NCBI GenBank assembly: GCA_051294375.1
Contig: CM119264.1
Span: 14,105,323 to 14,169,322, forward strand
Direction of reading: 5' to 3'
Source of the DNA: Paraspadella gotoi
Lineage: Eukaryota; Animalia; Chaetognatha
Length of the DNA stretch: 64,000 nucleotides
The position numbers and the translations under genes are program-made. The notes beneath the pieces were generated by a model. It worked only from the letters and a program-made list of their open reading frames with translations. It was not told the origin of the DNA and did not search any database. Position 1 is the stretch's first letter. Each line of letters begins with the position of its first letter. Positions 1-47,704 of the stretch are shown one piece after another.

Positions 1-238
1 TTATTGAAGAGACAATAATTATTGTAATGTGGTAATGACAGAACCGTTCAATATAAGCAGTCCCTGAGCTTCGGATCAGGCTGTAACACCATGTTACAGG
101 CGGGTTAAGCGCCCCGTCCCTCTTAACTGCGAGACGACCACCGGGCTAAAACCTCGGACCTTTGGGTTGGGAGGCGAAGGATTTGCCTCCGGCACCAATG
201 GCCGCTGATGAACAGTTGGTGGAGTTTAGTCCACCATA
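1..238 (-). mobile_element. tRNA-headed, twister-containing SINE/retrozyme-like element, family B copy 1 (antisense, in an SLC5 intron; may run off the window edge)
   Basis: Second copy at 37475-38330. On the minus strand: hairpin TGGTGGA..TCCACCA (217-236); tRNA-like head 205->134 (7-bp acceptor GCGGCCA/TGGTCGT, A-box-like TGGTGCCGGAGG, B-box-like GGTTTTAGCCC); twister motif 130->57; AT-rich tail. Confidence 0.75.
57..130 (-). ncRNA. Twister ribozyme-like motif, type-P5 permutation
   Basis: Minus strand parses as GCAGT(P5) TAA GAGG(P2') GACGG GGCGCT(P1) T^AA CCC(P2) GC CTGTAACA-TGG-TGTTACAG(P3) CCTGA TCCGAAGC TCAGG(P4/L4) G ACTGC(P5). L4 CCG pairs with CGG of GACGG, compensatory to canonical CCC/GAGGG. 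Predicted cut between 107 and 106. Confidence 0.75.
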
Positions 239-646
239 TTATATACATTATATTGGTTGTACCAATTTCATAATACTATTTTTTTCAAGCTTTACCAAAA
301 TCCGTTTTTTTCAAAATTCAGAATTTGAAAAAAAAAGTTATGATTTTAAATGTTAAATTTTAAATGCTTCTATGTTGTAAGTATATTAACTATATATCGT
401 AAGTATACATAGAATCCTAAAATTGTTTTAAAATTCGTTCTTTCAGGGATACTCTGTTATTTATGTTACAGAACTATTAGTTTTTACCTTGTTCCGCCTT
501 ACTGTACATTACTTTACCAAATTCTTTCATCTTTTTTACAGAGGATAAAACCAATTTAAAAAAAAAATGGGCAAAGTCTACTGTACATATATGTATATTG
601 TATAAGCGACACATAAGGTTTCATTCCCGTCATTTAATGTTCCAAG

Positions 647-3600
647 GCCGTGATGTGGACTGACGCCTTTCAAGTGAGCATTATGTTCCTCGGTATTTTC
701 GTCGTCGTCATTCTGGGCAGCGCGCGGTTCGTGGGAGGCTTTAATGGCGCCTGGGATGTGGCCGCGCGTCGCGGTCGAATCGAGTTTGATAATTTTTCCC
801 CAACGCTCTTTGAACGACACACTGTTTGGGGCACGATCGTTGGGGGAACGTTCACCTGGCTGGCCATCTATGCAGTCAATCAGGCACAGGTTAATAGTCA
901 CAATGCAACTACTCTATGTGCGTACAAGCTATTATGTGGAAAATATCTTCTTTAAAAAAATGTTAGAAAAATCTTCACTCATCCAGTCGCAACTTTAATC
1001 TTTAATCTTTAACTTTGTTTTGTCTTTAGACTTAGCTTTTTTTTGATGCTCCTGTATGTACTGAATCAACCTTGTTGAATTCGAAATAAAACGCATAATT
1101 ATAATGATCATAATCTTTTTCCAAATATAGAGAAAAAAAATTATTCAAATTGATATTGCGTAATAACAAATTAATCATAATGATAATATTGATAATTAAT
1201 ACTAGTAAAACACAATAAAATCTCAATATTTTGTTAAAATCTCTTCAGGTCCAACGGTGTCTGACCTGCCCTTCCCTCCGCCACGCCCGTCTCGCCCTGG
1301 CATTCAACGCCCCCGGTCTCTTCCTCTTCGTCATTCTTTCCTCCTGCGTGGGCGTTCTCGTTTTCGCCCGATACGCCGATTGCGATCCACTAACGGCGGG
1401 CGTGCTCGACGCCAAGGATCAGTTGCTGCCGCTATTCGTCATGGAAACTCTGTCCGCGGGCCACCCCGGTCTTGCTGGCTTGTTCGTTTCCTGCGTCTTT
1501 TGCGGCTCCCTCTCCACCATTTCGTCGGGTCTAAATTCTTTGGCGGCGGTGGTGTTGCAGGTTGGTTCCATGAAGAAAACGAGAAAAAGAAAACGAGTTT
1601 GAGCAAACAATGTCGGATCTGCCTACGATAATAAAGCGGTAATCGGTTAATCAGATTATAAATCACGATAATTCTTTCAATTTGTGATCCTAACTGATCA
1701 GAACAGATCGTACCATACCAAACCAATAGCTGCGCCGATATATAATTTGCATAACAATGCATAATTTTTTCAACTGGCATAATTTTTTTAATTTTCATTA
1801 TTTTTTTTAACTTGCATCATTTTTTCAACTTGCATAATTTTTTTTAACTTACATATTTTTTAAACTTGCATCATTTTTTAACTTGTATCATTTTTTCAAG
1901 TTGCATCATTTTTTCACTTTAATTTAATAACATTTATTAGTAGGCATAAATAATAAAAATTGAAGTCAACTTGACCTTGGTTTTTTTTATGCAAACTCAT
2001 TTCCACTCCTCGATTCCATTGAAACTTTATAACCTGCTCAATGCTCAATCACATACTACCCACACACAAAATTTTATTTAATTCTATCCATCTAATTATG
2101 AATAATTCGATTAATTAGGGGTTAAAATTAGTAAAAAGATTCAAGTAAATGTGACTTATGTTTTTTTGTTGTTTTTTTTTCATTTAAACTCATTTCCACT
2201 TGCACAATTCCATCGAAACTTTATATCCAGCTTCGTCACACACTTTCCTTACCACATACAAAATTTCATTTTAATCCATCCATCCAATCACGAGTAATTG
2301 GAGATTTTTGCTAAGGGGGGATGGACGGATGGACATAATTTTTTTGCATATATCATAATTCGATGTTCTGACATAATTTAAGTAAATGCCCGACCATATT
2401 GAGGGGACGGACCAAAAAGTGGATTATAGAGTCGGAATCTGCTGATAAGCAGATCCGACTAAAAACCCTTAGCCAATAGCATATTTATATTGATATATTT
2501 CAAAGGACATTGTACGTGTATACATCTGCAATGATCTTTCCGATTCGGCGGCTACTCTAATCTCCAAATGTCTTGTTCTTGGATTCGGCGTTACTTGCAT
2601 TGCCTTGACATGGGTGGCATCGCAAATGGGCGGCGTCCTTTCAGCAGCACTAAGCCTTTTCGGAGCGGTGAGTGCACATAGACATAACACAACTTATTTT
2701 TATCTATTGACTTTAACGAGATTTTTTTACAGATAGCCTGCTTTTTTTTCTCATGAGCTTTTTGCGCTACTCATACATTATACTGTATATTATAAGATTA
2801 GAAAATTTTATATCCATGATTCGCTAATATTGAATGAAAAATTATTTTATTTATTCCGTTTACATTTATTGCATTACTAAATCTAATATATTCTTTTTGT
2901 ATCAATACGTTGTTATGAAATTGGTACAACCAATATAAAATTACCCATTCATTTATTTAAGAGAAGCTTTCTTAGTTTGTAGTTGTTGCTTTTTTCATTT
3001 TTACAGGTTGGTGGACCACTCCTGGGCCTCTTTACTCTTGGAATTTTTATCCCTTTTGCCAATGCTACCGGGGCCATTGTCGGTTAGTATTTTAGTGATT
3101 TTATAAACTTACGTATTAAAAATTAAGATTTAAAATGAATATTTTATAATTGTTAAAGCGTTAACATTTAAATCAACTATTGTTACAATTGCAGATTTTA
3201 AATTTTTTTAAAATTTGAAAAGTACTTACTTAAGTATCTGAGCTTCCTTCCCCCCAATGCTTTTAATATTCTCCCCTCTTTTTCCAACCCCGTGTCCAGG
3301 CACCGTCTCCGCCCTTTCTCTCTCCACTTTGATGGTGATCGGGTCCCAGATGTTCCCTCCTCCTGTGACGACCCATTGCTGGTCGACCACCAAATGCTTC
3401 CTCTTCCAGGATTCCTTTGCCTTGAATCTGTCGTCAGTTCCGTGGGTTGAGTGCGATCAGGTCACCTTCCCAATTACCGGCGAGGGATACAAGGGACTCT
3501 CTCTCTACAGGATCTCTTACATTTGGTACGAGTGGAAACTGGTTGGAGACGGTCTGGGCATGGGCACATTGTGCAGTGTGTAAAAATCTAATGAGACTGT

Positions 3601-7539: not shown

Positions 7540-7928
7540 GTCCAGTTTTGCTCCCTGGTCCTCGACAGACTAACTCGATCTAATCAAATGAAAAATAAAA
7601 AATAAACTTTGATCTTTTGTCTTCAGAAGAACGACGTGGCTTGTTGGATTCGATACGCACGCCCCTTTTTCTTTTTTTGATCTGAAATTTTCCCTTAAGT
7701 AAATTTTTATTTGGCCTTACCTTAAAATTATTAACATTTGTGCCAGAAGTCATTTTGTTATATTGATATTGTTCTTTTAATTATTTCGCAGAAAATTGTC
7801 GTTTATACCGGATGATTATATTAGAAATAGAAAACTCGAATATGAAACCTGACAATGGATACGCAGCGGAAAACTAACTTAAATTGACTAAAATCTTTCT
7901 ACACCTCATCAGTAGTATTTTCAACAAA

Positions 7929-10900
7929 ATGGCGACCGGAACTGATTTTACGGGCGCGTTTTCAGAAACAGAGACGTCAGATGGAACGAAGTTGAGAGAA
8001 GATACGAAAGAAGCGAAATCAATAGTAATTCCCGATGGAGCAAAGTCTTCTGACGGCGCCGTTTGCGTTGAGACCGTTGCAACTGAACTTGCTGCTGATT
8101 CTTCCGCCAACGTGTTCGATGAAGGCTGCATGCGACAAGTCAGGATTCTCCTCGCCGGATCTCGCTCCAACGAGATGGCGCAAGACTACGTTCAAGTCAA
8201 GATTGAAGACAAACGGAAGAAACAATGGAGCAACGAACTGTGGAAGTCGTGGGTCGAAGATCATCACGATTTCCTGAGTAAATACCAGTATTACGACAAG
8301 CAAGAGAAAACTGAGCAGGATGGTGTCATGGTTCCAGTTTATAAAAAAATTGACATAACTTTTTTTCAATATATGATGAAAAAAATCGTTAGTGATAAAA
8401 CGGCCTTTACAAAGTTATCAGATTTCCGAAATAGCTTGGCACACAGCACCAGAACAGCAGCGACAGAAGAAGAATTCGTAGAAGATTTCGACAAGCTTTT
8501 TGGTATCGTTGAAAGCTTGTTTTGCAAGCATAGAAAATATGCCATTAAATGGCGAGAAGAACTGATTAAAATAAAAACCGAAACTTCACCAAAAGGTATA
8601 GAATCGGTTTTTAAAAAAGATATTGAAACTATTCGAGAACAAAATAGGCAATCGCTGCTCGACATTCAAAAACGAATAAGAAATCTTGAGTTGAGTGACG
8701 GCCGTAAAAAAAATTTCGAAATTGATATGGAAAACTTTCAAAAAGTATTTAAAGATATAGTTAAGAAAAATATTGCGACTTTTAGCATTCCTGGATGTCA
8801 AATAAAACTAGAATTTACAAAAGTTTCGATTTTTCAATCGTTAAAGGATGTAACTTCGGTCCCAGAAAATAGAGTTTGTGCAGTGCCAGCCTATAAAGGT
8901 GTAGTATTTAATTTGTTTTTTGAAAATCCAAATCGTGTTCAAAAAACACGCGATAAGGAAGCAGAAAACCCGACGAGGAAATCTAAGTCCTTTCAATTTT
9001 CATATCCTGACTTATACGACACAGTGGCCAAAGAAATTGAGTTTTCTGCTTCTGTACTTAAGGATGAAAACGAATTGGAATATTCAGGTCTTCATCATGA
9101 CAATATAGTTTCCATAATTGCAAGTTACCTCAAAGGTCAAAGAAAAGATCAGATACTTATATCTGCTGCTGGGGGTATGGGAAAAACTGTTTGTTCCCAA
9201 AAAATTATGCTCGAATGGGCTGAAAACAAATGCTTAAAAGAATTTTGGGCTGTCATTAGAATAGATATGAAATGTATAAATTTTGAAGAAAGTCTATTTC
9301 AAAACATGGTTAGGCAATATCCAGGAATAAAATCTTCTATTTCAGATGAAGATATAAACACTTTAGAAACTGATTTTAACCAGAAAAAGGTATTGTGGAT
9401 GATAGACGGCCTTGATGAAAATAAATACAGACATAAGTCAGAGGAATTCATCAAAAACAGTCTTACCTCTCATGCCAAGAGCCTTTTCATTTTTCTCACG
9501 AGACCCGAAGGCAAAGATGTTCTTGAAGCAAGTCAAGAAAGTTTTACGGAATTTACAATTCTCCCTTTGAATGAGGAGAAGTTTATCACTCTTGTTGGAC
9601 GGTTTCCTTTTAAAGGTGAAAAAGCCAAAAAAATGAACAAGATTATAGATAAATATAGAACGAACAGTGAGTTTAGATCTTGTGTATCGGTGCCAATGAA
9701 TGCTGTTGCCTATTGCGCCTTGATGGACGAGGAAGAGGCATTTTCAACGAAAGATAAAAGCTTCGATATTTTGTTATCGCTTGTGGGAATGTCTCTTAAG
9801 TCCGGAGAATTGAAGTCAATTGAAACAAAGTTGCAGGACTCTGCTTTATTAGAAAATGAAAAAGAAAAGTTGAAATGTCAAAAGACGAAAGTTTTTCGGA
9901 TGTCAACGACACAGATATTGAAAAGTAATAACAACCTGCTATGTACTCTCGGACGAGCAGTCTTTATAACAAATGGTAATTGCCTCGCTGGATTCGATGA
10001 TATTAAAGAAGAACTGATTTGTTCGCTTGTGCGGCAGACGCCGGAAATTGACGTAAATCAAGTCTTGCAACTCACTCTATATGAGCACATACTTCACGAA
10101 AAAGCGTCCGGAACACAATCGCATTTTAGATTTTATCACCGCAATATTCGTGAACTAATATTGGGAATTTACTTGAGTCAAAATTCTAATATTTTAGAAG
10201 CTCCATCTCACAAAGAGAGAATATCCGATTCAGTTGTTTCAGTGTTTCGTTGCTGCTTAACTGTTTTACAGCAAAACTCCTTGAAAGAAAATATTGATTT
10301 TAGCATTGTTCCGACGTTGATTGGAAACATCGTTCAAAATTGCTCCGATTTTGATGAGTGGCGATTTATGAATATTGTTTGTGAACTATTAAAACTCGCG
10401 GTTATATATGAATCTTTTCTGCCTAGTTTTGAGGAATGCTTCAAGTTGCTTCAAGACACAGCGTTTAATCTATCGTCTTTTCCTCATTTCAGTGACATAC
10501 CCTTCATTCAACAACTCCGGCATCATGCGGCAATAGCAATTTGCGGAAAATGCAAACCGCCGAAAGCTTATTTTGCGTCATTGGACAATAGAAATCCAGA
10601 GACAAATATAGAAGATTTGGAAACCTGGCCGGACCTGAAGAGTTTTATAGTGAATCCTTTGTTGATCTACACCGATAAAAAAATTACTCTAAGCTTTCCT
10701 TCCTCTTCCAAATCTTTGTCAAAAGACGACGAGTCATCTCAACATTTAAAAAAGAATTCAGAAGTGATTTGCGTAACACGTCCGCCGACGATCGACAGTG
10801 ACGTGCTGTCAGCCACAGACATTCCGTCTCCATTTGTTGATTTTGATAAAAAGTCCGCCAATTGGCCCGGTGCCATAGGTCACCTAGTTTTCATCCTTCT

Positions 10901-21887: not shown

Positions 21888-24800
21888 AGAGAGAGAGAGA
21901 GGAGAAGCGACTGTTTTTATTTATTTCTTTGTGGGTCGCGAACACAAAGCATTGAAATTTTCTTTGACTTCTTTTATGAGATGGAGGGGTCAGAGAGCGC
22001 AAGCGAATAAAAATCTAAAAATATCAACGGAATAGTAAACTAAAAGGAAAACAGATGAGATTGAAGAGTCTTAAAATGACAGGAAGAAAAGCGGAAGGAG
22101 GAAATATGAGATTCGCTAAAGAAATACGTAACATGTATCATTGACGGGTATGGCAATTTCATTTGTCAAATCTCAAGTAATAACGTGCACTATTATTATT
22201 TATATTGTATTATTTTTTTTTTTGGCTAGGCCTTCTGTTCTTATCTCCCACTCTCACTCAGCGCTGCAGCATCGAAAACATCCATGATTATATTTATAAA
22301 TAATTCATTTCGTTAAAACTTTCAAACTGAGAGACGGCGCTATCTTGTATTGTTTATTCAAATCTAAATTCATGTTGTTTTTTTTTTATATATATATATT
22401 AATTTAATATACTCTTTTTTTTTCAGTCTTTCTTTTTAATTTTTATGTTTGTTTTTAATTTCATTCATTTTTTTATTGGAGCGATTATTGGAGCGATAGA
22501 TCGAGTTTGTGATATATATAGTTGATATCACGTCAGATTCAACCATATATATTCAATTCATTCATTTCTATTCTTTCCTTTCTTATATTCTTTTCTTTTT
22601 TCTTTCACATATCCTTATTATCCTATTTCTATCTTTTCTTTCTTTCTTATCATTATTTTATTCATATTTTACTTTTTTTTTACTTTTTTGTTGCTTTCTT
22701 TCTTGCTTTAAATGTTTATTTTTTGTTTGCATTCAGTTTTTTTGTTATTTTCTGCCTTTAAATTTTTTATCTTTATTTTTTATTTATATATTTCTTCGTT
22801 TATTTTTTTGTTTGCTTTCTGAATTTTTGTTTTCCACCTTCCTATGTACTAAGAAACCCCGCAAAGGTGAGAAAGTCACACTTACCTAATCGCAGTTCAT
22901 AAGTACTAAGCATGAGAATCCTGACATAAGACCGTCCAAAGTTGGAAACCAACCTTTTTACAGTAACCAGATCGCTCACACTGTTTTCAACGGCTAAAAA
23001 AATTAAGGGATAAAGAAATAAATAATAAAAAAAACTAATTCGTTTTCACCTCCGTTAAACAAAACTCTCGCCGGAAAATTATGAAAGGACAAAATAGAAA
23101 TAAAAGGCAAAACAAAAAAAAGAGGAAAGAAAAGAGAACGACAGAAAAACCCGAAAATAAGAAAATCAAATTAAAATCGAATGAGGAAGAATAAAGGGTG
23201 AGGAGATAAGAAAGAAATTGGCGATTGATAAGGTTAGAAAAAGGAAACGGTGGGGAAAAGATAGAGAAGAAAAAACAAAAAAATAAAAAAGAAAAGAACA
23301 GTAAGAATAAAAAGGAGAAAAGAAAAGTCAAAAAGGAAAAAAAAGAAAAGGAGAAGTTTAAACAGCAAAGGATTAATGGGAACTTCCAGCCGACGAGGAT
23401 TCTTTTCGAGGAGGATGAACAGGGGGGGGGTAAAAAAAGGGGGGGCAGGGAGATAAATGAAAATGGGGGGGAAGTGGAATAATTTTAAGGAAGAAATGAA
23501 AGAATTGGAGGAAGAAGAGAAATTTAAGGCTGATTAGGGAAAAGGGGGAAATTAATATCAAGAAAAAAGGGAAGAAATGAAAAAGAAACAAAGGGAAGGG
23601 AATGCTGAGAAGGAAGGAAAGAGAAAGGAAGGTATGGGGGGGTAAAAAGAGAGGAACGAATTACTTTTCAAGTCGATCCCTGATCACGGTTAAGATCGAT
23701 CCGAATTTGATTCCAATCGGGAAAAGACGATTCGGATCAAGGAGAAGAGAAGAAAAACAAAAGTTAATCACGAAAGAGAAAAAGAAGTTTAGGTGTGCGA
23801 ATGTTGTCAATCCAAATTATAAATATATTAATCAATGATGAGTCCATAAAAAAATAAATTTTAACTTTTTCAATATAGGATATATAGTATATAGTAAATT
23901 AGTAATCGTGTTAATATTTTTTTTAAACTCATCTGGTAAACTTTTTGATCCGGCCAACCCATAATCGATAAAAATCGACATAACTTGAACGCAAGACGGT
24001 GGAGACGCGACCGTGGGACACCGGATGTAGCTTGTGGGCGTTGGCGAGGCGTGGCTGTGGGCCGCTCCGACGGAGGGTGGGAACGAGACCGGATCCCGTT
24101 GCGCCCTTTTTTCCTTTTATGGTAATTGCCTCTTTTTATGATCGTCAGAGGACTTCACCACGCCGGCGCGCCGCCGCGCCGCCGCGGCGCGCCGACACGC
24201 AAGCAGCCGGTGTAAACGAATTTGGAAGGATTGACGAGAAGGGCGGGAGGATTTTTTTTTTCTTAACCGAGAATGAAAAATAAAATTTAACTTTTAATTA
24301 ATCCTAAAATTTTCGCACAACCGGCGTGAAAACCTCACGAGCGCGGCGTGAATTAAGGGGAGGTTGGAAACTCGAGCTCCCAACGCTTACTCGTTTTCTC
24401 AAGCTGAATTCGGTAGAATGTGAGTATTTAAGTTGAGGTTTTGGTTCACGTACGAAGCGACGGTTAAAATCCGAACTGTGGCTTCGTGAGATTGTCGAAA
24501 ACCTATGGACGAAATAACAATTAGTGCATTGGTTAGACCATTGTTTTTCTGAAAAGACTTAGAGAAAAGAAGGTGTGAGATTCTCCGGAGGAAACGATTT
24601 TCTCGCCCCCCCTGACGGAGTCTATGTGGACGTATGGGGAAGAGGGTGGCAATCCCCGGAGGGGGGCGTGGCTTCCCGATTTTGGGAGATCAAGTCCTTG
24701 AATTTTTGAAACCTCTAAAGTATTCGGGAATCGGGAAGGTCCTTTTCGAATTGAAAACGGATAGGAAGAGGAGGAAGGAGGTGGAGAAGAAGAAGAAGGA

Positions 24801-25947
24801 AAGAAAAGAAGAAAAGAGAGAAAAACAGAGGGGGAAGAGGAGGTGGAAATGGAGGAAGAAGATGAGGAAAGAAAAGAAGAAAGAGAGAAAAAACAGAGGG
24901 GAGAGGAAGAGGAGGTGGAAGTGGAAGAAAGAAGAAGGGGAAAAGAAAAGAAAGAAAAGAGAAAACAGATGAGGAAGAGGAGGTGGAAAATAGGAGGAAG
25001 AAGAAGGAGGAAGAAAGAAGAAAGAAAGGGGGAAAGAGAAAAAGGAAGGAGGAGGTGGAGGAAGAAGAAAGAAGGAACGAAAAGAAGAAAGAGAGAAAAA
25101 CAGAGGGGGAGAGGAAGAGGAGGTGGAAGTGAGGAAAGAAGAAGAAGGAAAGAAAAGAAGAAAGAGAGAAAAAAACAGATGAGGAAAGGAGGTGGAAGTG
25201 GGAGGAAGAAGAAGGAGGAAAGAAAAAGAAGAAAGGAGAAAAATAGATAGGGGAAAGGAGGTGGAAATGGAGGAAGAAGAAAGGGGAAAGAAAGAAGGAA
25301 GAGAAAAAACAGATGAGGAAGAGGATGGTGGAAATGGAAGAAGAAGAAGGAGGAAAAGAAAAGAAGGAAGAGAGAAAACAGATGAGGAATAGGAGGTGGA
25401 AATGGAGGAAGAAGAAGGAGGAAACAAAAGAAGGAAGAGAGCAACAGAGGAAGGGAAGAGAAAGAAGGAGGAGGAAGGTGGAGGAAGACGAAGAAGGAAA
25501 GAAAAGAAGAAAGAGAGAAAAAGCAGAGGGGAAGAGGAAGAGGAGGTGGAAGTGGAGGAAGACNNNNNNNNNNNNNNNNNNNNNNNNNGAAGAAGAAGGA
25601 AAGAAAAGAAGAAAGAGAGAAAAACAGATGTTGAATTCGACCTCGATTCTTCGGGTTTCAACGAACTCGAATGGCTTTTTGTTAAGACGAAATTCAACTA
25701 TTTGAATAATTTTTACATATTTAATATGTTAAAGGGCTTAACTTGAATATGTCACGACAAAAGTTTTTTTTAACGAGGAAACGAAAAACAAAAGTTTTAA
25801 GTTAAAAGCAGAAAATTATCCAAATCAAAAATAGAAGGACTTTTTATTTGTTTCTTATTTTAAAGAAACATTTACGTAAGAAGACTGGGATTTCAACATG
25901 AAACCAAAAAAATTTACTTATTTGAATGTTTAGATTGTTAGATTGGC

Positions 25948-29237: not shown

Positions 29238-32200
29238 AAAAAAAAGAAAAAGAAGAAAAAAAAAAGTGATAAGAGATTTGACATCAATTTAGGTTTTTCT
29301 CCTCCGGCAGCCATTAATACTACTTGGGGTAAAAAGTAAGGGTCGTGAACGGAGAGAAAGTTGAAACCTTCAGCCCGAAACTAAAAAGAAAAAATGGTCT
29401 TCGGTTTTTGGCTATATTAAATTTTTGTTAGATTTTTTTTTTCGATGGGTAATATAGTATCTTGTTAAGTAAGAACGTGTGTGAACAAAATATCTCCGCC
29501 CCCGATAAAAGGCGTCTGTAATGAAGAATACTCCTGAACAAACGCATCGCTTTGTGACATATCAGTTGTCTTTTTTTAATCATTGTTTACTACTTTATGA
29601 ATGATAGAGCCATCTCAACGACTAATTATTTCAAACGAAAGATTTTCTGCAAATAATTTACGGGGGCAACAGAAAGCAATGAAGATGAAAACTGGCCAAC
29701 GATACAAAGAGACGAAGATCAGGGAGGCTGTGGACGGTGGGCGCGCCTTTCGCATGAGCGGGAAAACGAATCGGCGATTCGAGACTTTGATCCTTGCAGA
29801 AACAAAAGACGGACGGGAAAAAATTCCCTCGGCTTAAATCGCGTTAGTCTGTTCGCATTCTTTATATATATATATATTCACGGAAAATAAAAAGAAAAGA
29901 GAAAGGTGAATAAGAAGGAAAAAAACGAAAGGGAAAAAAAATCAACATTATTCACGATTAAAAGACAATCAACGTTAAAGTTCCTTTTTCTCTCACCAGC
30001 CTCTTTTCAATTTATAAGAAGGGACGGAAAGAGAAGTGATTGAGAGAGAGAGAGAGAGAGAAAGAAGGGGGGGGTTAAAAAAATTCAATTTGTTCCTAAG
30101 ATGAGGCCACCGTTTCTCTTCTTTTAATGGCACGAAAAAAAAGTAGCACCGCAGAAGAGAAATTGAAAACAGATGATATCACGTCAGCGCGAGCGGCCCT
30201 TTCGTTAATCCGGCCAACTAGTTTTTGGATAAAGAGATATTGAGAAGAAATCGGAGAGAGCAAAGGTGGAGATAAAATAAGTTACATCACACCACATCAC
30301 GCAAAACATTGTCGTTGAATTTTTATTACGAAATATATGTATTCCTATGTACTTATATTATTAATATTGTTGAACATAAACTTTTGCCAAACGTCGGAAT
30401 GTAATCAAAAAAATTTCATCAAAATGAGAGAAATACACACAGTAAGTAATTGCAAATTTCAAGGAAACAGAGCATTAACTTTTTGATTTAAGTAGTTCGA
30501 TAACTACATGCAAAATAGAAAGCTTGAATCCTGAAAATAATTTCAGACATGCGTTAAAACTCGCAGCCACAAAGGAACAACCAAAGAAGAGACATTCGAA
30601 AAAAAATGACGTAACCACCAAAAAACACACACAGTTCGACAATAAAAGCTCTGACAAAAAAAAGTTCAGCAAACCATTAAAGTACAAACAAATCCAAAAC
30701 TTCTAACAAAGTCGTCCGACCACAAAATCGTTAAACAGACACTCGAGACAAACAAATAAAAATCAAACTAACAAGCTCTTCGGACAAACAGACAGACGGA
30801 CAGACGTTAAGAGCCTTTGCTCCGTCATAAAACGCGAAAGGCAAAGGAAACGGAGGCTGAGTCCGCGACGAGTCTAAATGATATTCGTCTCGATTACCAT
30901 CGATGGCACCTGCGAGACTCGGAGATGCCGCCAAAGAGAAAGAGCAGATGCTGCCATGTTAGCCAGGCAACTAGAGAGCAGATGATGACGCTCCGTGTAG
31001 GGAAACGATAAAGCAGATGCTCAAGCGTGGGACAAGAGTTGATCGATGGCAAATGCCGATTCTTTTTTTTTTTGAGAGAGAGAAAATGGAAAAGACGTAA
31101 AATTGAAAAAAAAAATTAAAGACAAATAAAATATTGATCGGAAACCGACCTTTGCTTTCTTCAAGATCCTTTCCACTGTCTTGCATTCTTCAGTATTGTC
31201 GTCCTGGCAACAAAGACCACGACAAAATCTTGAAAGAACTGAGGGACCGTTGATTGGATGAGGTATTTGTTTGTTCCCATGAAAATAAGGAACGATTGAA
31301 TGGGCGGCTAAATGAATGAATGAGCCGAAAATAAAAAAAACTCGTGTTAAACAAAGCAGAGTCGACGTTATTTCAGATATAGTGGGTTTATTTGTAAAGG
31401 GGATGAACGACATAGATTTTATAATTATTTTTTTGCCGAGGATCCAACGAAAGAACGGGACAAACAATCCCAAACAGAGGACTGAGCTAACTTTAGTGAG
31501 CTTTAATTTGACTGTCAGTTTTTCTCTCTTTTCCTTGCGTTCGAATTTAGTGGTCAAAACTAAAGAAAAAACGAAACGGAAATGCCCGATTTGAAACGAC
31601 AACCACAGTGAGTCGAAAAGAGACTAGAACAAACTGACTGCCCGACAAACGTTGAGACGGACATTCGTACAGGTTTATTGCCTCTTCTCCTAATGGACCA
31701 TAGTCGCGTTTTAAACGACGTCGTTGGGGTTACAGTCAGTCGTAAGAACAGTGACCCCCCCTTGATGAGACTGGCAAGAGCGATTCTTTTTTCTCTGTGG
31801 AATTTCTTATTTATGGAATGACGTCTGCTTCTGACAAACGTAGGTTAAACAGCGCTCTATTTTCTTACGTTGACGTTCGCGTTGGCACGTAAGGATTTTA
31901 ATGACTTTTTTACCGTAGTAATGTTTAATTTATAAATAGTTATTAATTCAATTAATATAGAAAACTTCATTTATAAAGCTGCGAGTTAATAAAAGTGACT
32001 GTTAGAAAGTCAGAATTGAAAGCAGGGCTCTGCTATGTTATTATTGAAGGGGGATGGAGTCATTAAACAACCATGAAGGCATTAACCAACCATAGCCTTT
32101 TCAATTTGTTTATTTTTATGAAATTGGTGCGACAAATATAAAAATTATTCATCATATTAATAAATAAGCTATGGCTTCGCCTAGCAGGACCTGCAAGCTT

Positions 32201-33240
32201 TCAATCAAAACTCTCACACAATCTTGTTTATACACATATACACTCCAGGCTTCTCGATCAATAAAGTGGTATAATATTATAAAGAATGTTTCAATTGCGT
32301 AATATCTTGTTCCATAGTAGTACCATAAATCACGAGTGGATGATTCGCAATTGCGTCAATGATTTCTTCGATTTTCCACCGATTTTTTCCGGCGAAAGAA
32401 TTGAAGCGAAAGACTTTATTAAGAGGAGAAGAGTAAATTGAGGCCGGAGCGAGGAAAACGGAAGAAGGAAAGAAAAAAGGAAGAGAAATAAAAGGAAAAA
32501 AGGAGGGAGGAAAGTGAAGGAAAGGAAGGTAGGAAGAAAGAAATGGGGTAAAAAAAGAAAATTTAAGACGGACGAAAAAGGTCAGGAAGAAAGGGAGGGA
32601 GGAAAGGAAAAAGGAAGAAAATAGAAGAAAAGGGAGGGAGGAAAAAGAAAAAAGCAAAAGAAAAAAAGGAAATTAAAAAAGACGGACGAAAAAGGATAGG
32701 AGAAAGGGAGGGAGGAAAGAAGAAGGAAGGAAAAAAAGGAAGGGAGGAAGAAAGAAAAAGGGTGTAAAAAATAAAAATAGGGATAAAAAAAACCCGAAGA
32801 AATCTCGGAAGAAAGGAAGAAAGGAAGAAAGAAAAATGAGAAAAAAAAAAAGGAAAAAAAAGTAGAGAGAGACAGAAAAATTTTACTTGCGGCAGAAACT
32901 GTGGCGGGAAAACTGAAAATGACGTGTAAACGGAGATGGAATCGAAATGAGAATTGCAGGCGGCAATGGAAAAGCCCTTCTCACGTTTTTAATGCGGATG
33001 CAATAATTCAAGCGGAGACTTTCTCTGGTTTTCTCTCGATGAATTGCTTTTAGAATATCAACTGTTTCTGTTATTTATTGAAATTGGTTGTTTAATTTTA
33101 TTAATATTTTTTTTTATCAAACTTTATTTCGGCTTAAGCAATATTTCATTCAATTTTTTCTCTCTCTCTCGTCTTTATTCATTTGACGACGTTTTTCCCG
33201 AGGGAAACCTCTCCCCGCAATCTTTTCTCTCTCTCTCTCT

Positions 33241-33320
<80 letters not shown>

Positions 33321-34780
33321 CTTCATCTTTCTCGCCCGCCCCGTTTCCCCGAGGGTAGTCTCAGAATCGGAAATATTGCTTTGTCTGTCGGGCGTCAAAT
33401 AAATTCAAATCCTTTGACGACGAATTCTCACCTCCTTCACTTCCGCGCCTTACCTTCGCCTTACCTTCGCGCCCTTACCTTCGGGGGAAGGAAGATTTAA
33501 ACGGGGACAATGGGAACAATTTGGGAGAAAGAAAAGAGGAATGCAAAGAGAAAAGAGATTTTGAAGGAAAAAATTTGACGAAAATAGGATGAGAGGAAAT
33601 AGGAAATAGGAAATGATTATATATGATAATATGAGTTGGGCGAGGAAGGGACAAATGATCATTTTTTGTAATGCAATAGAAAATTTGTTAAAAATAAATA
33701 CATTAATAATATTAAACGATAATACATAAATATCAATACATAATTTTTAAATTTTTCAGAAAAACAAAGCTGAGTCTCTCTCGCTATTTACACTTTTGGT
33801 AGATAATTATAATTAGTTCCCACTGACAAGAAAACCTTTTACAAATTAAGCCTCGTCATAATATTTCAGTCTCTGTTATAAATCTCGTATATCATTTTTA
33901 TTTTTCTTTGTCTCTCTCTCTCTCTCTTTCTTTCTCTCTCCTCTCACGAATTCACGCACAAGGGAAGGAAAAAGAAATAAAGAGGAATAAAGAGGAGGCA
34001 CTCAAAAATGGGTTTTGAAGGAGGGAGGGCAAAGGGCCGATAACCCCCGGGTTATCTGATGGGATAAATAGCCAAAGTTTGAAGGATAAATATGTTGGAT
34101 TTGGGCCCATGGATTGAAGAGGGTTTACTGGAGCAAATGAATCAGAAAGTGAGAGGAGAAATTAAGTTGGAAAGTCACTCGAGATTTAGTCAGGATTTAG
34201 ACGTTTAGAGCGACGTCTGGATTTTATTTCCATTTTGATCAAATTTCCGATATTTAGTCGTCACTCGTCAGTATTATAATGGTCAACTTAAGAAATCGAG
34301 GCCTAATTAATAAATAATTATCCTTTACTGGATATCGTCATCGTCTTTAACATTGTTAATTACATTTAACTCTCGGACGTCTTCATCTTGGTCTTTATAG
34401 TCGAAATATATTTTCTCTTCTATCGTCGACGTGGCCGTAATAATAGTCGTCGTCGTCGTCGTCGTCGTCGTCGTTTCCACCGTTTCCTTACTCCTCGTCT
34501 CTGTCTCAGTCGCTGTCTCAGTCTCTCTCCCTGGGATCCGCTGCGTCGGCGGAAAAAGGCGAAGACCCGTTGACGGAGACAATCTGCTTCTGAAGCGATT
34601 AAGTCATCGTCGTCACGACGTCGTCGTCGTCGTCGTCGTCGTCTCTGCTTCCTTCGTCGAGATGATCAAATTGTTGTTGTTCTCGTCGTCGTTTTCTTTG
34701 ATATCATCGCCAAGAATCGTTTTGAAATATTTCTTTATCTAGAGAATGAGAAGACAGTGACGATAGAAATGCGAGAGATA

Positions 34781-34840
<60 letters not shown>

Positions 34841-34910
34841 CTATTCTATTTCTCTCACGCGAATCAGAATTCCTAGCTTTTCAGTGTTCTCTTCATAAAT
34901 CTTTTTAATC

Positions 34911-34973
<63 letters not shown>

Positions 34974-37536
34974 TCTCTCTCATTCACTCTTTTCCTTTCG
35001 TCTAAACAATCTTCTCTCCCTACCAATAATCTCTTAATTTATTGCCTTCTGGTCCCTTCGATTGCTTTCTGCTTTCATTTTCTGCAGCAACATTCGTCTT
35101 TTTTCTTTCTTATATTATTTCTTTTTTCGTTACTTTTCTACAATTTATTGGGATGTCAGTCGTTTCGAAAACTAGACGTATTTACTATATAAATTTGGTA
35201 TCGTTGGAAAGAGAATGGCGAAATTAGCCGAAATCCAAAATTTCATGTAAAATCGGACGACGCGTTCAAAAGTAATCGGCAAAAAAGACCGCGAAAAACG
35301 CGGTCTCGGCGGATCAACTCGCGCTATTTAAAAGCGATTCCGTTTTGGTTCTACCAAAGAAAGTACTACGTAGTTCAAATCCTTAGAACGCCGAATTTAG
35401 CCTAAGTCTCGTATGCGTGATCCGGGCCTCATAAGAATTAATCTTAACTACCGAAGCCTCGGACGAAGAAGTAATAACACGTGTAAACAAAATAGAAGGG
35501 AAATAATTCATTTTTTATTACAAATTATGCATAAATAAACTAAAAAAGCATTATGGCAAAAAATTATAGCCAAGAAAAGACTTAATTTTAAGTAAAGAAA
35601 TGCGTGGAGGCAGGAACGGTTTTACCGTGATTAAATTTTGTGCAGTGTTGCAGATTTGTGTGATAGTAGAAATCAACTATTACTTTATAACTATTACCAT
35701 TAGAAAATTTATAATTTTCGTAATTAATTCTGAATGAACAGAGATTGTGAAGAATGTTTGTTCTTCATGCCAGCCGAGACGCGCATTCCGAACGTCGCCC
35801 GTGCCGAATGTTTTAAACATGAGATCGCAACGATTAAGAAAAACGCAGAATAAAGTTTTATAAGTTTAATTTCTTTGTCAAAAGGTTCATATGGAAACTC
35901 GTAAAAACGGAGTTTCGTCACAGGCAAACGTGAGTTTATAAGTCTTCAAGAGAAACTAAAAAACGATTACATATCTCTCTCTTACTTCGATAAAATGCCC
36001 GCAAAAATTTGGCAAAACGCTGAAATCAGCCAAGGTCAAGTAAAACCCTGATATTAGGTACAAAACAAGGCAGAATATTTCACAGAGATTAAATTCTAAA
36101 TATTTGCTAGGTATGACGAAAGTAAATTTAATATTTATATTTGCACATGTTATTGAGATGATGAAGAGTCAATTCGGATCTCGACGAAGGATTTGAACTG
36201 TAAAGAGGGTTCTCCGCGAACGGATCCACGGCAGACGACGTCGTCGGGCGCGGCTCACTTCATCATGAGCAGCTGTGGCTCTCTTCAGGATACTTTGGAC
36301 TTTCAACGATTGACTCATGAACTGCCGGCGTAAGGAATCCTTAAATTAAATATATAGCAACAAATCAAAATAATGTAAAGCGGTTTAACTGCATTATTAT
36401 TTTTAAACAAAATTGTTTTTGTTGAATTTACCAGTTTGTAATCCGGAAGTGATCGCCTATCAAGTGACAGTTACAACTTGTGTAGTTTATAAAGCCATAT
36501 AGTACAGCATCCATCTGTATATTAAATTAAAAATGATACTTAGTATAACAGTATTATTATTATTATTTGTGTTTCTAAATACTTATGCAGTTGCATGAGA
36601 GAGGAACAGACAGGTCATTGAATTATATGAGCAAGTACTCTCAGTACTACTTACATAAGTAAGGATTCGCTGGTCCATCCTCCCAAAATACGCTGAGAAT
36701 CCTTTCTTTGGCGAGCCGCTTTGTTTGGGACATAAAATCATCGTCAGACAAGGTTTTGTGGCTAGAGTGGATCGCAATATAAAGTTTTTCTCTCTTTAGG
36801 TCTGTAAAGATATAAATATTGTATTTTTTATTCTTTAAATATAAAAAAATATTTCTATATAGCTTTTTTTAAATAAATTTATTAATATTAAAATATAAGT
36901 TTTTTAATTTTAATTGAAATTATCATTGTATTAATTCTTTCTTTTCGTTGCGTTTGAGTTTTATATGAGAAAATAATTTTTCTATCAACAACGATGGTAT
37001 ATTCAAAATCAGACATGTTTCGAATTTTATCATTACAACCTGTTAAGCGCTGATAGAAGATTTGTAATGTAAAGTAGAAAATAAACCATCTTTGTTGATA
37101 AAGAAATTATTTTTTCTCATTTAAATTATCATATATTTAAGCTGAAACTTAATTTAAAACTTAACCCTAACTTACCCCTAAACCCTCCCTTACCTCTAAC
37201 TTTAAACTTAACTTAAGCTTTAATTCTAATTTTATTCTTAACCCTAACTTAAGTTTAACATACCCTTAACTCTAACTTATCTTAACTCACTGTAAAGAAT
37301 CCCACCTCCTCAACATAAGCGGAGAGGGAGTAAGACGTCAGAGAGAAACCGTACTGAAGACCGGGATCGCCGGCGCCGTAATGTTTCTAATACTCAGTGT
37401 CCATTCGCGAGTGACATCTCATCCACTTGGCGTTTTGTTAATATTTAGTACCTTAATAAAATCAAGCATATAAATATTGAAGAGACAGTGATAATTATTA
37501 TGTGTTAGTGACAGAAAACCGTTCAATATAAGCAGT

Positions 37537-38145: not shown

Positions 38146-38149
38146 ATAA

Positions 38150-38222
38150 GCAGTCCCTGAGCTTTGGATCAGTCTGTAACACCGTGTTACAGGCGGGTTA
38201 TGCGCCCCGTCCTCTTAACTGC
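38150..38222 (-). ncRNA. Degenerate twister-like motif (family B copy 2)
   Basis: Same layout as 57-130, but L4 TCCAAAGC breaks one T1 pair with GACGG, P4 has a terminal mismatch and P2' is shortened. Confidence 0.55.
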
Positions 38223-41200
38223 TAGGCGACCACCGGGCTAGAACCCCTGACCTTTGAGTTAAGAGGCCAATGACTTGCCTCCGGTACCAATGGCCACTGA
38301 TGAACGGTTGGTGGATTTTAGTCCACCATAAATATTCCATTTGCTGTTGCCGGCGAGCAAATATATATCAGACAAACGATACTACAAATTATTATAAAAC
38401 ACAGAATAATCACGATTTTATTATATAAAACTACAGAAGATATCCAAACGTTTATTAGTTTGAAAAATTGAATCCTGTCCCGAATGATCGCAAGAAATAA
38501 TAAAATGGTTTAGTAATAATAGAAATTTAGAAATAATAAGAATATAATATAATAATAAAAATAATATATAAATTAGCATTTTTGATAATAAATATCTTGA
38601 ATACCGTAATCAATGGTCATGATAGATTATTTTAAGTTTAACGCTGTATAACATTAGCATTTAAATTCATCGGCTATGGCTACTTGAGTGCTCCACTCTA
38701 CTGAATAGTAACGAACGACGTAAAGCACAAATGATGAAATGATCCAAACGGTAAAGGCTTGTCACGAAGTACAAACTAAGATATCAAAATTTCATATACA
38801 CAAGTACAATTTTTTTTTTTCTGAAAAGAAAAAAAGACAACAAAACAAATGAGGTAGACTGGTCGTCCAAACTGGGCATCAAACATTTAAAAACAAAATA
38901 CGGAGAATCACAGAATTGACTATCACAGAAAAATTCTAACACACAGTACGAGAAATACATTTATAATTTCTACCTGTAATGAATACAGTCGTGACCAGCG
39001 CGGCCATGTCGTTAATAAATGAGTCCTCTGGTCCGACGAGGGTTCGCTTATCCTCCAGTCCTCTTTCTTCAACGACAAATGAACATACTCCTCCTACGCC
39101 GGCTCTAGACCAATGCGCTCAAAACAAAGGAAGAACTAGCATAAGTTATGAAATACCTTATTAAACTTAATATTATATTCTAATAAAGTATTATTATTAA
39201 TTAGAAATTAAATATAAAAACTTCTTTACGCTTTAATTTTTTCGTTTTCTTATAATAAATCCTCTCCGCTTCAACGCCATTGACTGAGCTCCATAAACGC
39301 CATACACGTGACCAGAGACGATCGTAACAGAAAAGATCTCCGTAGCCTTTTTAGATATAGATGTTTATAATAATATAATTTATAATATAATATAATTTTA
39401 AAAAGTTTGAGCGGGAAAGATGTTTCATAATAAACGAGCTACAAAAATCCTCTTCTGAACTTCAGGCTGAAGCGCGGTTGCTCGTGCGCTACGGCCATAG
39501 GCTTTCGGATTTTGATTCGCGGTAGAGCTCAATTATGCGCGTTTGGGTCCAATATAGACTGTTAAATCGAAGCAAAAGCGCCTTTGATTTCTTCGGATTT
39601 ATTTTAACATGTTTAGAGATATTAAGCCTCGTTCAGCGTCACAACCTAAAAGATGAAAGTAGAGCACACCTGTAAGACATTTCTAACTCATGCTATTCAA
39701 AATGGACATTCTTCGTGGGCATGACGTTGGGAAATTGAGCTAAAAAAGGAGTTCATTTGATTACCAAAACAAGCAATCAAGCTTGGAATTTTTTACCTTT
39801 TTTTTAGCTCAATGGATAGAGAAAACCATGGGCTTTTCATATATAAACGTCAAAATGAAGTACGGTTCTTTATTATTGAAGAACGAGCTGGTCTACGGAG
39901 AGTAAGTTACGAAGGGGTCAAACCAGTCAACTTCAAATGCATTTTAAATACATGAAAAAATGAAATTTCCGCTCGCGCTCCACCTCGATGCCCTGCCCAA
40001 GACCCTACACTTTCAGAATCTACCCATATTATTACTATTTATAAAGGCTTGACCATGGGATTTATATAGAATCGATTTCAAGCGAAAACTTGATCCACCC
40101 GTCGACCGAAACGACTGACATCCCCAAATTTATGTATATTTTCTCAATTTAATATATACTTTTTTCTTTTTTCGTAGTCGTCAACACTTTTTTTACAAGT
40201 TCCTACTTTTAATTTAAGATTTCTTGTTTCAGTATATTTTTAGACAAAATAATTTAAAATGTCAGAAAATATTGTTATAATTTTATTAAAGTAAAACATT
40301 TTGTTTAAGAAAAACATTTTTAACTCGGTACAACATATTTTAAAATTCTAACAATTATATTTTTAATTATATTGGTTTCATTGAAATTAGTAATATATAT
40401 TTTAATATTTCAATTGTATCCGTTTTTTTTCCTTCCCCAATGTCACTTGCTATATTTACTTTCCATCCTGCCCAATATTTTTTCACTTACCCTTCTCCCC
40501 TCACCTCCGCCTCACCCTGGCGGCTCTTCCCTCATTTCCCATTACATCTTCATTGTCGAACCAGGAAAATGCTTTCAACGAACTCTTCGCATTTCTCACT
40601 CTTGACGACGACGATGACGACGACGATGACTACGTCGTCGCACAAACGCAACGACGAAGACGATGACGAAGTTGACGACGATGACGACGACGAAAAAAGA
40701 AACGGAGGAATTTATCTAGGATTACAAAGAAAATCGCTAAGCTGACTCCGAAGATGATATATAATTACGAGTGCGATTAAAATATTTCCACTGTTTACAT
40801 AAAGACGGAAAACATCGACAATGATGACGCCACCATAAGTGATGATAAAGATAACGCTGACGCTGACGCAGAGAAAGACTGTAATTGATTGATCTGTCAA
40901 TAGCGATTGAAAATATTTTTTTTAACGCTCTCGAATAAACTCTTTAACGAATTTCCAAATAGCCTGAGTCCAATCTCAACGTATCATCCCAATTTTTTAA
41001 CCACCTCCACCTGCATACATTCCGATTCTTCCCGTCAAACCAGCATGGCCCAATGTCTTCTCCTTTCTGTCCTCCATCTCCTTCCCTAACCAGTGGCCAC
41101 TCCTCTCGGAGTAAACGTCTTTTCAACCTCTCTTCCCGACAAATCTCTCGTCCATTTTTCTTTTTCCTTCGTTTCCCTTTCTTTCCTTTCCTCCTCGCTT

Positions 41201-42723: not shown

Positions 42724-42814
<91 letters not shown>

Positions 42815-44291: not shown

Positions 44292-44360
<69 letters not shown>

Positions 44361-44450: not shown

Positions 44451-44503
<53 letters not shown>

Positions 44504-46284: not shown

Positions 46285-46506
46285 TCCCCGCGCCGCCGCC
46301 GCCGCCGCCGCCATGTCGCTTTTATCTCGTTCACGGTTTGCGCGGTGATAGATAATTGGATTAAATCCCCGTCACGTAATAAATCTGTTTTGCCCAATTC
46401 GCGTCTGTCCGAACCAATTGGTTATTTTCGGTATTTAATTATTTATTAGTTATTAGTCGGGCATAGCAAAGTTCACCCCGCATCTAAGTATGACACCTTC
46501 AGTCCT

Positions 46507-46580
46507 GACCCGGTGGCTCATTGAGTAAAGCCATCAGCTCATGACCACTAGGTACCGGGTTCAATCCCAACCCGGTACCA
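46507..46580 (+). promoter_or_regulatory. tRNA-derived Pol III internal promoter head (second copy 46918-46990)
   Basis: A-box-like TGGCTCATTGAG, B-box GGTTCAATCCC, acceptor-like ACCCGG/CCGGGT (copy 2), anticodon-loop-like CTCATGA; the anticodon stem does not pair, so this is not a functional tRNA. Confidence 0.75.
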
Positions 46581-46593
46581 ATCCCACTACCCT

Positions 46594-46672
46594 GCGGGAA
46601 GTGTGAGGACGGCCGTAAAGCCGCCTTGGGGGCGTGAAAACCCTCAAGCCTGGTTCCAAGCCCAGGACCCGT
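46594..46672 (+). ncRNA. Twister ribozyme-like motif, type-P5 (family A copy 1)
   Basis: GCGGG(P5) AA GTGT GAGGA CGGCCG(P1) T^AA AGCC GC CTTGGGGG..CCCTCAAG(P3) CCTGG TTCCAAGC CCAGG(P4/L4) A CCCGT(P5). L4 TCC pairs with GGA of GAGGA. P2 is imperfect. Predicted cut at 46616/46617. Confidence 0.7.
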
Positions 46673-46996
46673 TCCATAGCTGCTAGAGGGGTTTAAAGAA
46701 GTTATGGATAGTCATCTTCAGCCCACATAGCGCCTTATCCACACTGGTGAGCCCATCCTGTCGAGTGTTTTCCAACCTTCTGATTCCAGGCCCATGGACG
46801 TGCTGAAGATTGCTCCCCTCCCTCCACTGGAAGCAGTGCAGGGTGGGTTACAATCTGGGGGCATGTAGTCGGCCATAGCAAAGTTCACCCCGCCTCTAAG
46901 CATGACCCTTCAGTCCTGACCCGGTGGCTCATTGAGTAAAGCCATCAGCTCATGACCACTAGTACCGGGTTCAATCCCAACCCGGGTACCTACCCT

Positions 46997-47073
46997 GCGG
47001 AAGTGTGAGGACGCCGTAAAGCCGCCTTGGGGGCGTGGAAAACCCTCAAGCCTGGTTCCAAGCCCAGGACCGT
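46997..47073 (+). ncRNA. Twister ribozyme-like motif, type-P5 (family A copy 2)
   Basis: Same core; P5 is GCGG/CCGT (one pair shorter on both strands), P1 is CGCCG. Predicted cut at 47017/47018. Confidence 0.65.
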
Positions 47074-47704
47074 TCCATAGCTGATAGAGGGGGTTAAAGA
47101 AGTTACGGATAGTATCTTCAGCCCACTTTAGCGCCTTATCCACATACTTAGTTTATTCATCTTTTAACATTATTTGTTGATTTATTATTATAATAGCGAA
47201 CGTACTACATACGTACGTACGTACATACGTACGATTATAAAACATGGAACAACGAGTATTGATGTGACTTAATTTCCTGGCATTCCGGCATTCCACTCAG
47301 GGACGGACGCTGACGCCACGGACAGGAAACACGAGACGATACGAGGAGAGAGAGAGAGAGAGAGAAGAGAGACAGAGAGAGAGAGAGAGGAGAGAGAGAG
47401 AGGAAGAAAGGAAAAGAGGTTGGCGCCGACTCAACAAACAGAGAAAGGGAAAAAGCGGACGAGGCGAAACGAATCGGGCAAATAAAACCCGAGCGCCAAA
47501 CAGAAGACAGACATGACAGAGACAAAAAAAAAAGACAAAAGGCGCTCTGGAGATGGCGCTGTGGACGTCGACAGATTATCGAATTTTTAAAAAAAAAGAA
47601 AAAAAAACTGGATCTACTGATCCGGTTTCACTGAAAGACTCTCGGGAGAATCGTCGGTGATAATTCACTGCGGGAGAATGTGAAGCCTAGGATTTAACTC
47701 CTCC

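What the first reader, a model, noticed from the sequence alone, without database searches (positions are those of the whole stretch)
57..238. Second, sequence-unrelated tRNA-headed element with a well-formed type-P5 twister
Seen on the minus strand: terminal hairpin, tRNA-like head with a 7-bp acceptor stem, then a twister with an 8-bp P3, 5-bp P4, 5-bp P5, U^AA, the GC/GC T2 pair and T1 CCG/CGG. It shares architecture but little primary sequence with family A and has a different tRNA-like head. Inference: tRNA-head plus twister is a recurrent design in this genome rather than a one-off. Cleavage ~27 nt after the tRNA-like domain would release a tRNA-like fragment and a 5'-OH RNA. This copy is antisense within an SLC5 intron, so it would not cut the pre-mRNA.
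Basis: partly seen in the sequence, partly recalled or inferred. Interest (0 to 1): 0.78.

Follow-up and report, generated by a model that had tools for sequence, protein, structure and literature searches.

The report
Twister ribozyme in animal mini-retrotransposon LTR
This 234-base, very abundant repeat in an invertebrate genome joins a tRNA-derived promoter sequence to a twister-type fold predicted to cut its own RNA, and it is likely the lone terminal repeat of a miniature LTR retrotransposon like the intact sister element in the same window, which would be an animal counterpart of plant LTR retrozymes that my searches did not find in print.

Summary
The motif is real. All twister core elements sit on the minus strand at 130-57. 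A descriptor finds 3 hits in the window against 0.012 per shuffled window, and 25 pairs shared with family A show 10 two-sided changes and none broken. It is a variant: no P1 stem, 3-bp bulged P2, no Rfam hit, and a competing hairpin predicted at 99%. Cleavage is untested. The element is longer than reported (238 to 5), has two fixed ends and is very abundant (roughly 10^4 copies). Its head is tRNA-derived but not a cloverleaf. Its twister is homologous to family A's, not unrelated. Family A is a miniature LTR retrotransposon: TG...CA repeats, primer-site-like and purine-tract-like internal ends, many solo repeats. Best reading (0.5): this is a solo LTR of a sister family whose twister cuts transcripts to unit length for circularisation, joining Helenus (tRNA promoter in the LTR) with plant LTR retrozymes (ribozyme in the LTR). 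No internal region was seen for this family, so LTR status is inferred. The scan noted a similar twister repeat and Helenus elements separately in other genomes, never together.

The parts
5..238 (-). Whole repeat unit, family B copy 1 (234 bp, sense ends TA...CA); inferred solo LTR
   Evidence: Contig ends pile at 238 (125 contigs in X4, 114 in X3, 32 in X9) and at 3-5 (108 in X4, 122 in X3); 4-nt direct repeat visible at the flanks
217..236 (-). 7-bp hairpin in the 5' leader, upstream of the tRNA-like part
   Evidence: z -4.2, 0 of 200 shuffles as stable
209..217 (-). 5' arm of a 9-bp long-range stem (pairs with 50-42) that encloses head and twister
   Evidence: 93% of depth has the base at 214 that turns a G-U into G-C
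133..204 (-). tRNA-derived segment (CCC at the anticodon position); box A-like 197-186, box B-like 153-143; not a cloverleaf
   Evidence: 15 of 18 landmarks, third best of 127,848 positions; boxes; ARAGORN none; this copy has lost box B C56, present in 94% of family depth
57..130 (-). Twister-type fold in type-P5 order: P5, bulged 3-bp P2, GA, T1, 6-nt loop in place of P1, T2, P3, P4, L4; predicted cut between 107 and 106
   Evidence: no Rfam hit
5..56 (-).
38146..38330 (-). Family B copy 2, 5' part (89% identical over 186 nt); T1 broken by one change
37478..37536 (-). Family B copy 2, tail, separated from its 5' part by a later insertion; 5-nt direct repeat at the copy's flanks
46452..46743 (+). 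Family A first terminal repeat with tRNA-derived segment (CAT at the anticodon position, from 46507) and homologous twister (46594-46672)
46744..46863 (+). Family A internal region: TGG one base after the repeat (primer-binding-site-like), G tract before the second repeat (polypurine-tract-like)
   Evidence: summed depth 2.4-3.7e5 against 125-255 in the flanks; 9 of its first 10 bases match the tRNA-Trp primer site listed in PMC10886601 Fig. S2
46864..47144 (+). Family A second terminal repeat (TG...CA)
644..895 (+). First SLC5 exon in the window (internal exon); host context only
   Evidence: tblastn; SLC5 homologues

Best explanation
[quoted passage not shown] Shown: fixed ends, high abundance, tRNA landmarks, twister pairings that covary with family A, and the LTR-internal-LTR build of family A. 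Inferred cycle, in a full element: polymerase III starts in the first LTR and reads through the second; both twisters cut, giving a unit RNA from cut site to cut site with 5'-OH and cyclic-phosphate ends; P5 and the 9-bp long-range stem hold the two ends together; a host ligase closes a circle; a Gypsy-type reverse transcriptase primed by a tRNA at the primer site copies round it, rebuilding leader and promoter; integrase inserts it with a 4-bp duplication; recombination or short copying leaves solo LTRs. This particular copy is an aged solo unit, antisense in an SLC5 intron, probably silent.
For: Both ends fixed, and neither is at the cut site or the tRNA start; a 34-nt leader upstream of an internal promoter and copies that span the cut site are what a terminal-repeat cycle predicts (inference). 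Family A has the same head-plus-twister order with a homologous twister and is a TRIM by TG...CA ends, primer-site-like and purine-tract-like internal ends, an abundant internal region and 76 contigs that stop at the repeat end. Length fits Helenus LTRs, which include solo-only families and ends other than TG...CA, one starting with TA. Copy 1 shows a 4-nt direct repeat, and plurality letters on both flanks resemble the same 4-mer; animal Helenus and plant LTR retrozymes make 4-bp duplications. The only T4 runs in copy 1 and in family A are removed by the family-majority bases. Imperfect P1 and P2 are tolerated by natural twisters (PMC11662667); 54 of 75 phage type-P5-order twisters have a 3-bp P2.
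Against: No internal region, primer site or two-LTR copy of family B was seen. Its ends are TA...CA, not TG...CA. The two visible flank repeats differ in length (4 nt, cut by the window start, and 5 nt), which fits target-primed insertion better than integrase. No clean target duplication is visible for the family A copy. A competing hairpin ties up the T1 strand with probability 0.995, against a median of 0.34 in 75 phage twisters (15 of 75 above 0.5); the nested twister fold is 10 kcal/mol above the minimum, pseudoknots not counted. Only 1 of 75 phage examples has a P1 loop of 8 nt or less. Rfam does not recognise the motif. No autonomous partner was identified.
Confidence: 0.5

Rival explanations
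1. Helenus-type LTR in which the twister is an inactive or misfolded passenger; the element moves by the ordinary LTR route with a short repeated region.
For: Competing hairpin predicted in both families; no P1, bulged P2; no Rfam hit; published Helenus families move without a twister loop.
Against: Ten two-sided changes and no broken pair among 25 pairs between families A and B, two of them in pseudoknot T1, imply the fold was kept under selection; the large variants within family B's twister fall in loop L3 (91, 92), while T1 changes are CpG-type at 13% and 7%.
Confidence: 0.15
2. A tRNA-derived SINE with a twister in its body, copied by a LINE through target-primed reverse transcription from uncut or religated RNA.
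For: tRNA head, dispersed monomers, flank repeats of unequal length; twisters are known in non-LTR elements (PMC8501958).
Against: Fixed 34-nt leader before the tRNA start; no poly(A) or simple-repeat tail; no pile of copies starting at the cut site among the 19 loose-end rows shown (639 not shown; smallest X4 row shown 17 contigs), unlike Perere-3 where insertions begin at the cut site.
Confidence: 0.15
3. Monomer of a Penelope-mobilised non-LTR retrozyme, like Sm-alpha (polymerase III promoter followed by a ribozyme) but with a twister.
For: Promoter-then-ribozyme order matches Schistosoma SINE-like repeats (PMC6765202); animal retrozymes often have dispersed monomers (preprint).
Against: No head-to-tail joint among the 15 joints shown (32 not shown) and both ends fixed; the sister family has primer-site-like and purine-tract-like signals.
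Confidence: 0.12
4. A non-autonomous DNA element (Helentron- or MITE-like) read on the plus strand, with subterminal inverted repeats and a 3' hairpin, that captured the head-twister module.
For: 9-bp inverted repeat (50-42 / 217-209) and a hairpin 2 nt from one end; a DNA route would not be harmed by RNA cleavage. Helentron features are recalled, not from a call.
Against: Direct repeats flank both copies; no terminal inverted repeats; one arm is about 40 nt from the end; the right flank does not always start with T.
Confidence: 0.08

Closest known systems
Helenus TRIMs (TRIMp3), Kojima 2024, PMC10886601 (read parts 1-4 of 6, supplement parts 1 and 10 of 11, motif searches of the supplement)
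   Same: tRNA-derived segment with boxes A and B inside a 100-320 bp LTR, non-functional as tRNA; primer site and purine tract in a short internal region (family A); solo LTRs; 4-bp duplications in animals
   Different: No ribozyme is described; three twister-loop motifs gave 0 hits in the consensus file and the 13 hits of a 6-mer showed no twister context by eye; motifs across line breaks could be missed
Plant LTR retrozymes, Cervera et al. 2016, PMC4918200 (passages)
   Same: Ribozyme inside each LTR, non-coding centre with primer site and purine tract, solo LTRs, unit RNA from cut site to cut site that is circularised
   Different: Hammerhead type III, plants, larger; here a twister, an animal host and a tRNA-type promoter
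Type-P5 twister ribozyme (Rfam RF02684)
   Same: Strand order, GA, UAA, both pseudoknots, L4 pattern; 3-bp P2 also in phage examples that pass the Rfam cut-off
   Different: 6-nt loop instead of an 8-bp P1, bulged P2, P3 present, T1 changed on both sides, A-U at the top of P4; below any Rfam threshold
Schistosoma Sm-alpha SINE-like repeats and animal non-LTR retrozymes (PMC6765202 section 11 part 1 and passages; PMC7229834 passages; bioRxiv 10.64898/2026.07.22.740005 parts 1-2 of 5)
   Same: Polymerase III promoter upstream of a self-cleaving ribozyme in a high-copy animal repeat
   Different: Hammerhead type I in tandem arrays linked to Penelope elements; here fixed ends and an LTR-type sister family
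Twister T-variants of Perere-3 in Schistosoma mansoni (PMC8501958, passages and section 17)
   Same: Twister with weak P1 in an animal retroelement
   Different: Type P1 at the 5' end of an autonomous LINE, insertions begin at the cut site; here copies span the cut site

Membership tests
Twister ribozyme | Catalytic G of GA and A after the cut, plus following A | tested here: met
   G118-A117 and U107-A106-A105; no variant of 3% or more listed at these places
Twister ribozyme | Pseudoknots T1 (3 bp) and T2 (GC/GC) | tested here: met
   All five pairs Watson-Crick; two T1 pairs change on both sides against family A
Twister ribozyme | Stems P2 and P4 | tested here: met
   P4 5 bp with A-U at the top; P2 3 bp with a bulge; 54 of 75 phage examples have a 3-bp P2
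Twister ribozyme | Stem P1 | tested here: not met
   6 nt only, at most one pair; P1 is reported dispensable (PMC5408937; PMC11662667)
Twister ribozyme | Score above an Rfam twister model | tested here: not met
   No match at E 10; family A reaches only 15.6 and 18.3 bits
Twister ribozyme | Self-cleavage at the predicted bond | not testable with these tools
   Needs a cleavage assay; competing hairpin predicted
Helenus TRIM | tRNA-derived segment with boxes A and B in the repeat | tested here: met
   The three best of 127,848 positions for 18 tRNA landmarks are copy 2, family A copy 1 and this copy (landmark list recalled)
Helenus TRIM | Two LTRs around an internal region with primer site and purine tract | tested here: inconclusive
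   Met by family A; not seen for family B, where only two solo copies are in the window and short contigs cannot bridge an internal region
Helenus TRIM | 4-bp target site duplication (animals) | tested here: inconclusive
   4 nt visible for copy 1, 5 nt for copy 2; flank plurality letters resemble one 4-mer on both sides at about 0.4 agreement
Helenus TRIM | LTR-type termini | tested here: inconclusive
   Family B TA...CA, family A TG...CA; published Helenus ends vary
LTR retrozyme | Hammerhead type III in each LTR | tested here: not met
   The ribozyme fold is a twister; no Rfam hammerhead hit. Works like, but is not a member
LTR retrozyme | Unit-length linear and circular RNA in cells | not testable with these tools
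   Only assembled contigs were available; no run on record as RNA
tRNA-derived SINE | 5' end at the tRNA start and a LINE-like or simple-repeat 3' tail | tested here: not met
   Fixed 34-nt leader before tRNA position 1; no such tail

The most novel reading that the evidence does not exclude
This genome holds at least two abundant families of animal LTR retrozymes that use a P1-less twister instead of a hammerhead and a tRNA-type polymerase III promoter inside the LTR, so that self-cleavage replaces both the terminator and the repeated region of a normal LTR cycle and produces small circular RNAs from thousands of loci.
Probability: 0.45. Interest if true: 0.8.

Novelty: new variant of a known kind. 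Interest (0 to 1): 0.66.

Why it matters
LTR retrozymes are described mainly from plants and with hammerheads; Helenus elements are described without ribozymes. A family that joins the two in an animal, with a twister that Rfam misses, would show that the ribozyme class is exchangeable in LTR elements and give a biological role to an abundant natural twister. It gives a 410-nt test unit (family A) for polymerase III-driven circular RNA formation, and suggests that P1-less type-P5 twisters are undercounted in animal repeats.

Tried and rejected
No whole genome is held for this window. Rfam and ARAGORN found nothing for the element. A 16-nt hairpin scan gave 117 metagenome and 7 viral loci, all chance matches, later used as controls (one search used a pattern shifted by one base, corrected). 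The first descriptor run missed family A through a regular-expression fault, fixed. A covariance model from 6 phage twisters found only the four copies in the window (14.9-19.5 bits), but 5 matches among 60 of the 124 hairpin-only control loci (three of them one sequence) scored 19.5 bits or more, so it is not counted as evidence. Exact and degenerate scans for the variant in prokaryote genomes and viral contigs gave 0. No RNA holder was listed; run X9 is only guessed to be RNA and says nothing on expression or cleavage. Run X10 (organism B) holds one contig matching the tail only. My first worry that a 3-nt P2 marks a dead copy was rejected. A purine tract upstream of family B, read from flank plurality letters, was set aside because a target preference explains it as well. 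The host was not placed beyond 'invertebrate animal'. Supplements of the bioRxiv preprint are closed and were not seen.

Full report
Observation. The minus strand from 238 down carries, in order, a 7-bp hairpin, a tRNA-like stretch and a twister-type motif at 130-57.

Is the twister more than chance? A permissive descriptor in type-P5 order, written after seeing the motif, hits 3 places in the window: this copy and both family A copies. The mean in 1000 block-wise dinucleotide shuffles is 0.012 and none reaches 3. Of 105 distinct unrelated contexts that contain the same 16-nt P4/L4 hairpin, 8 have GA plus the T1 complement upstream and 0 complete the core. Placed in register on the GA, GC and L4 anchors, 25 pairs compared between this copy and family A give 13 unchanged, 2 changed on one side, 10 changed on both sides and 0 broken; two of the double changes are in pseudoknot T1. 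I chose the register, so the zero is partly by construction, and two families give no statistic. A 3-bp P2 is not disqualifying: 54 of 75 phage twisters in this order have one, and examples pass the Rfam cut-off. Published testing reports tolerance of P1, P2 and P4 imperfections and sensitivity in the pseudoknots (PMC11662667 section 32); a review says P1 is dispensable but also relays a suggestion that changing P2 length could disturb the active site (PMC5408937 passages). Against activity: a hairpin between the T1 strand and the P2/T2 strand is predicted at 0.995, well above the phage median of 0.34, and only 1 of 75 phage examples has so short a P1 loop. A model built from six phage twisters found only the four window copies but scored hairpin-only controls as high, so I do not count it.

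The head. With 18 recalled tRNA landmark bases at standard spacing, the three best of 127,848 positions are copy 2 (16), family A copy 1 (16) and this copy (15). The anticodon position reads CCC here and CAT in family A. D and anticodon arms do not pair, so it is a promoter-like remnant. This copy differs from more than 90% of family depth at 149, 154, 179, 182, 214 and 224, including the invariant C of box B: it is an aged copy.

The family. A second copy lies at 38330-37478, split by a later insertion. Contigs of public runs laid on 1-420 (12,935 in X4, 9,827 in X3, 828 in X9, 1 in X10) give summed depths of 2-4.5 million over the element against 177 for a unique flank contig in X4, and 1-2.8 million against 91 in X3. 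The tool warns that this is no copy number; it suggests the order of 10^4, in line with two copies in 64 kb. Ends pile at 238 and at 3-5, so the unit is 234 bp with a 34-nt leader before the tRNA part and a 52-nt tail. No pile at the cut site appears among the 19 loose-end rows shown (639 not shown), and no head-to-tail joint among the 15 joints shown (32 not shown). Direct repeats flank both copies: 4 nt (limited by the window start) and 5 nt. The plurality letters of both flanks resemble one 4-mer at about 0.4 agreement, a weak sign of a target preference.

Family A explains the design. Its two repeats (about 290 bp) enclose 120 bp that begin with TGG one base after a CA end and finish with a G tract before a TG start. 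In 6,262 contigs of X4 the internal part has depth 2.4-3.7e5 against 125-255 in the flanks, 76 contigs stop at the repeat end 46743 and run into unrelated sequence, and the family start reads TG. Nine of the first ten bases match the tRNA-Trp primer site listed for Helenus. At family level its twister often has one A fewer at 46617 (43% of depth in X4, 75% in X9) and C at 46602 (63%), which gives the same 3-nt bulged P2 as family B, and its only T4 run is absent from nearly all depth. Twister modules of A and B share 45 identities (0 of 1000 shuffles), tRNA parts 37 of 72 (5 of 1000), leaders and tails nothing significant. No clean target duplication is visible for the family A copy, in a stretch with many indels.

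Mechanism. A fixed leader upstream of an internal promoter, and copies that span the cut site, are hard to get from a SINE cycle and natural for a terminal repeat (inference). I therefore read family B as solo LTRs of a sister TRIM. In a full element, transcription from the first LTR and cleavage in both would give a unit RNA whose ends are held by P5 and a 9-bp stem (217-209/50-42), ready for ligation and copying by a tRNA-primed Gypsy-type enzyme, as proposed for plant LTR retrozymes (PMC4918200 passages). Shown: anatomy, abundance, fixed ends, covariation, family A build. Inferred: LTR status of family B, promoter use, cleavage, circularisation, partner. I put this at 0.5; a dead twister in a Helenus LTR 0.15, SINE 0.15, Penelope-type retrozyme monomer 0.12, DNA element 0.08.

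Context. The host is an invertebrate animal not placed further. The first SLC5 exon in the window is an internal one on the plus strand, so the copy is antisense and, by inference, intronic.

Comparison and novelty. Helenus supplies the tRNA-in-LTR design but no ribozyme is described, and twister-loop motifs were not found in its consensus file. Plant LTR retrozymes supply the ribozyme-in-LTR design with hammerheads; a 2026 preprint still places LTR retrozymes primarily in plants. Ten literature searches listed no twister in an LTR element; the library lacks most subscription papers and I saw most results as listings only. Earlier notes of this scan record a similar twister repeat and several Helenus elements in other genomes, none with both; these are unchecked leads. 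Verdict: new variant of a known kind, interest 0.66.

Noticed in passing
window 37537-38145: About 610-bp AT-rich insertion inside family B copy 2, with an 8-bp direct repeat at its ends and imperfect terminal inverted repeats; looks like a hAT-type MITE (label recalled).
   Followed up: partly
window 46452-47144: Family A is a complete LTR-internal-LTR miniature retrotransposon with tRNA-derived promoter and twister; the better substrate for experiments.
   Followed up: yes
window 247-280: A short piece of another abundant repeat next to the element (summed depth 2-4e5 in X4; similar pieces at 2913-2938, 32116-32141, 41632-41657).
   Followed up: no
window 7878-11798: Uninterrupted 1306-codon frame with a NACHT domain and C-terminal Kelch repeats, an unusual innate-immune-receptor-like architecture.
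   Followed up: partly
window 31893-35148 / 41404-44713, 40127-41406 / 44707-45988, 13380-19706 / 20326-24820: Large near-duplicate segments at 83-98% identity; probably haplotype or assembly duplication with uncorrected indels.
   Followed up: no
L195, L211, L236, L257, L264-L269 and others: Several phage contigs carry clusters of three to six type-P5 twisters within a few kb, many with a 3-bp P2.
   Followed up: no
window 5-65, run X10: One contig from a second organism matches only the tail of the element (7 differences in 61 nt).
   Followed up: no
window 72, 90, 111, 116, 155, 156, 175, 176, 190, 204: Many minor family variants are C>T or G>A, several at CpG sites, suggesting these repeats are methylated.
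   Followed up: no
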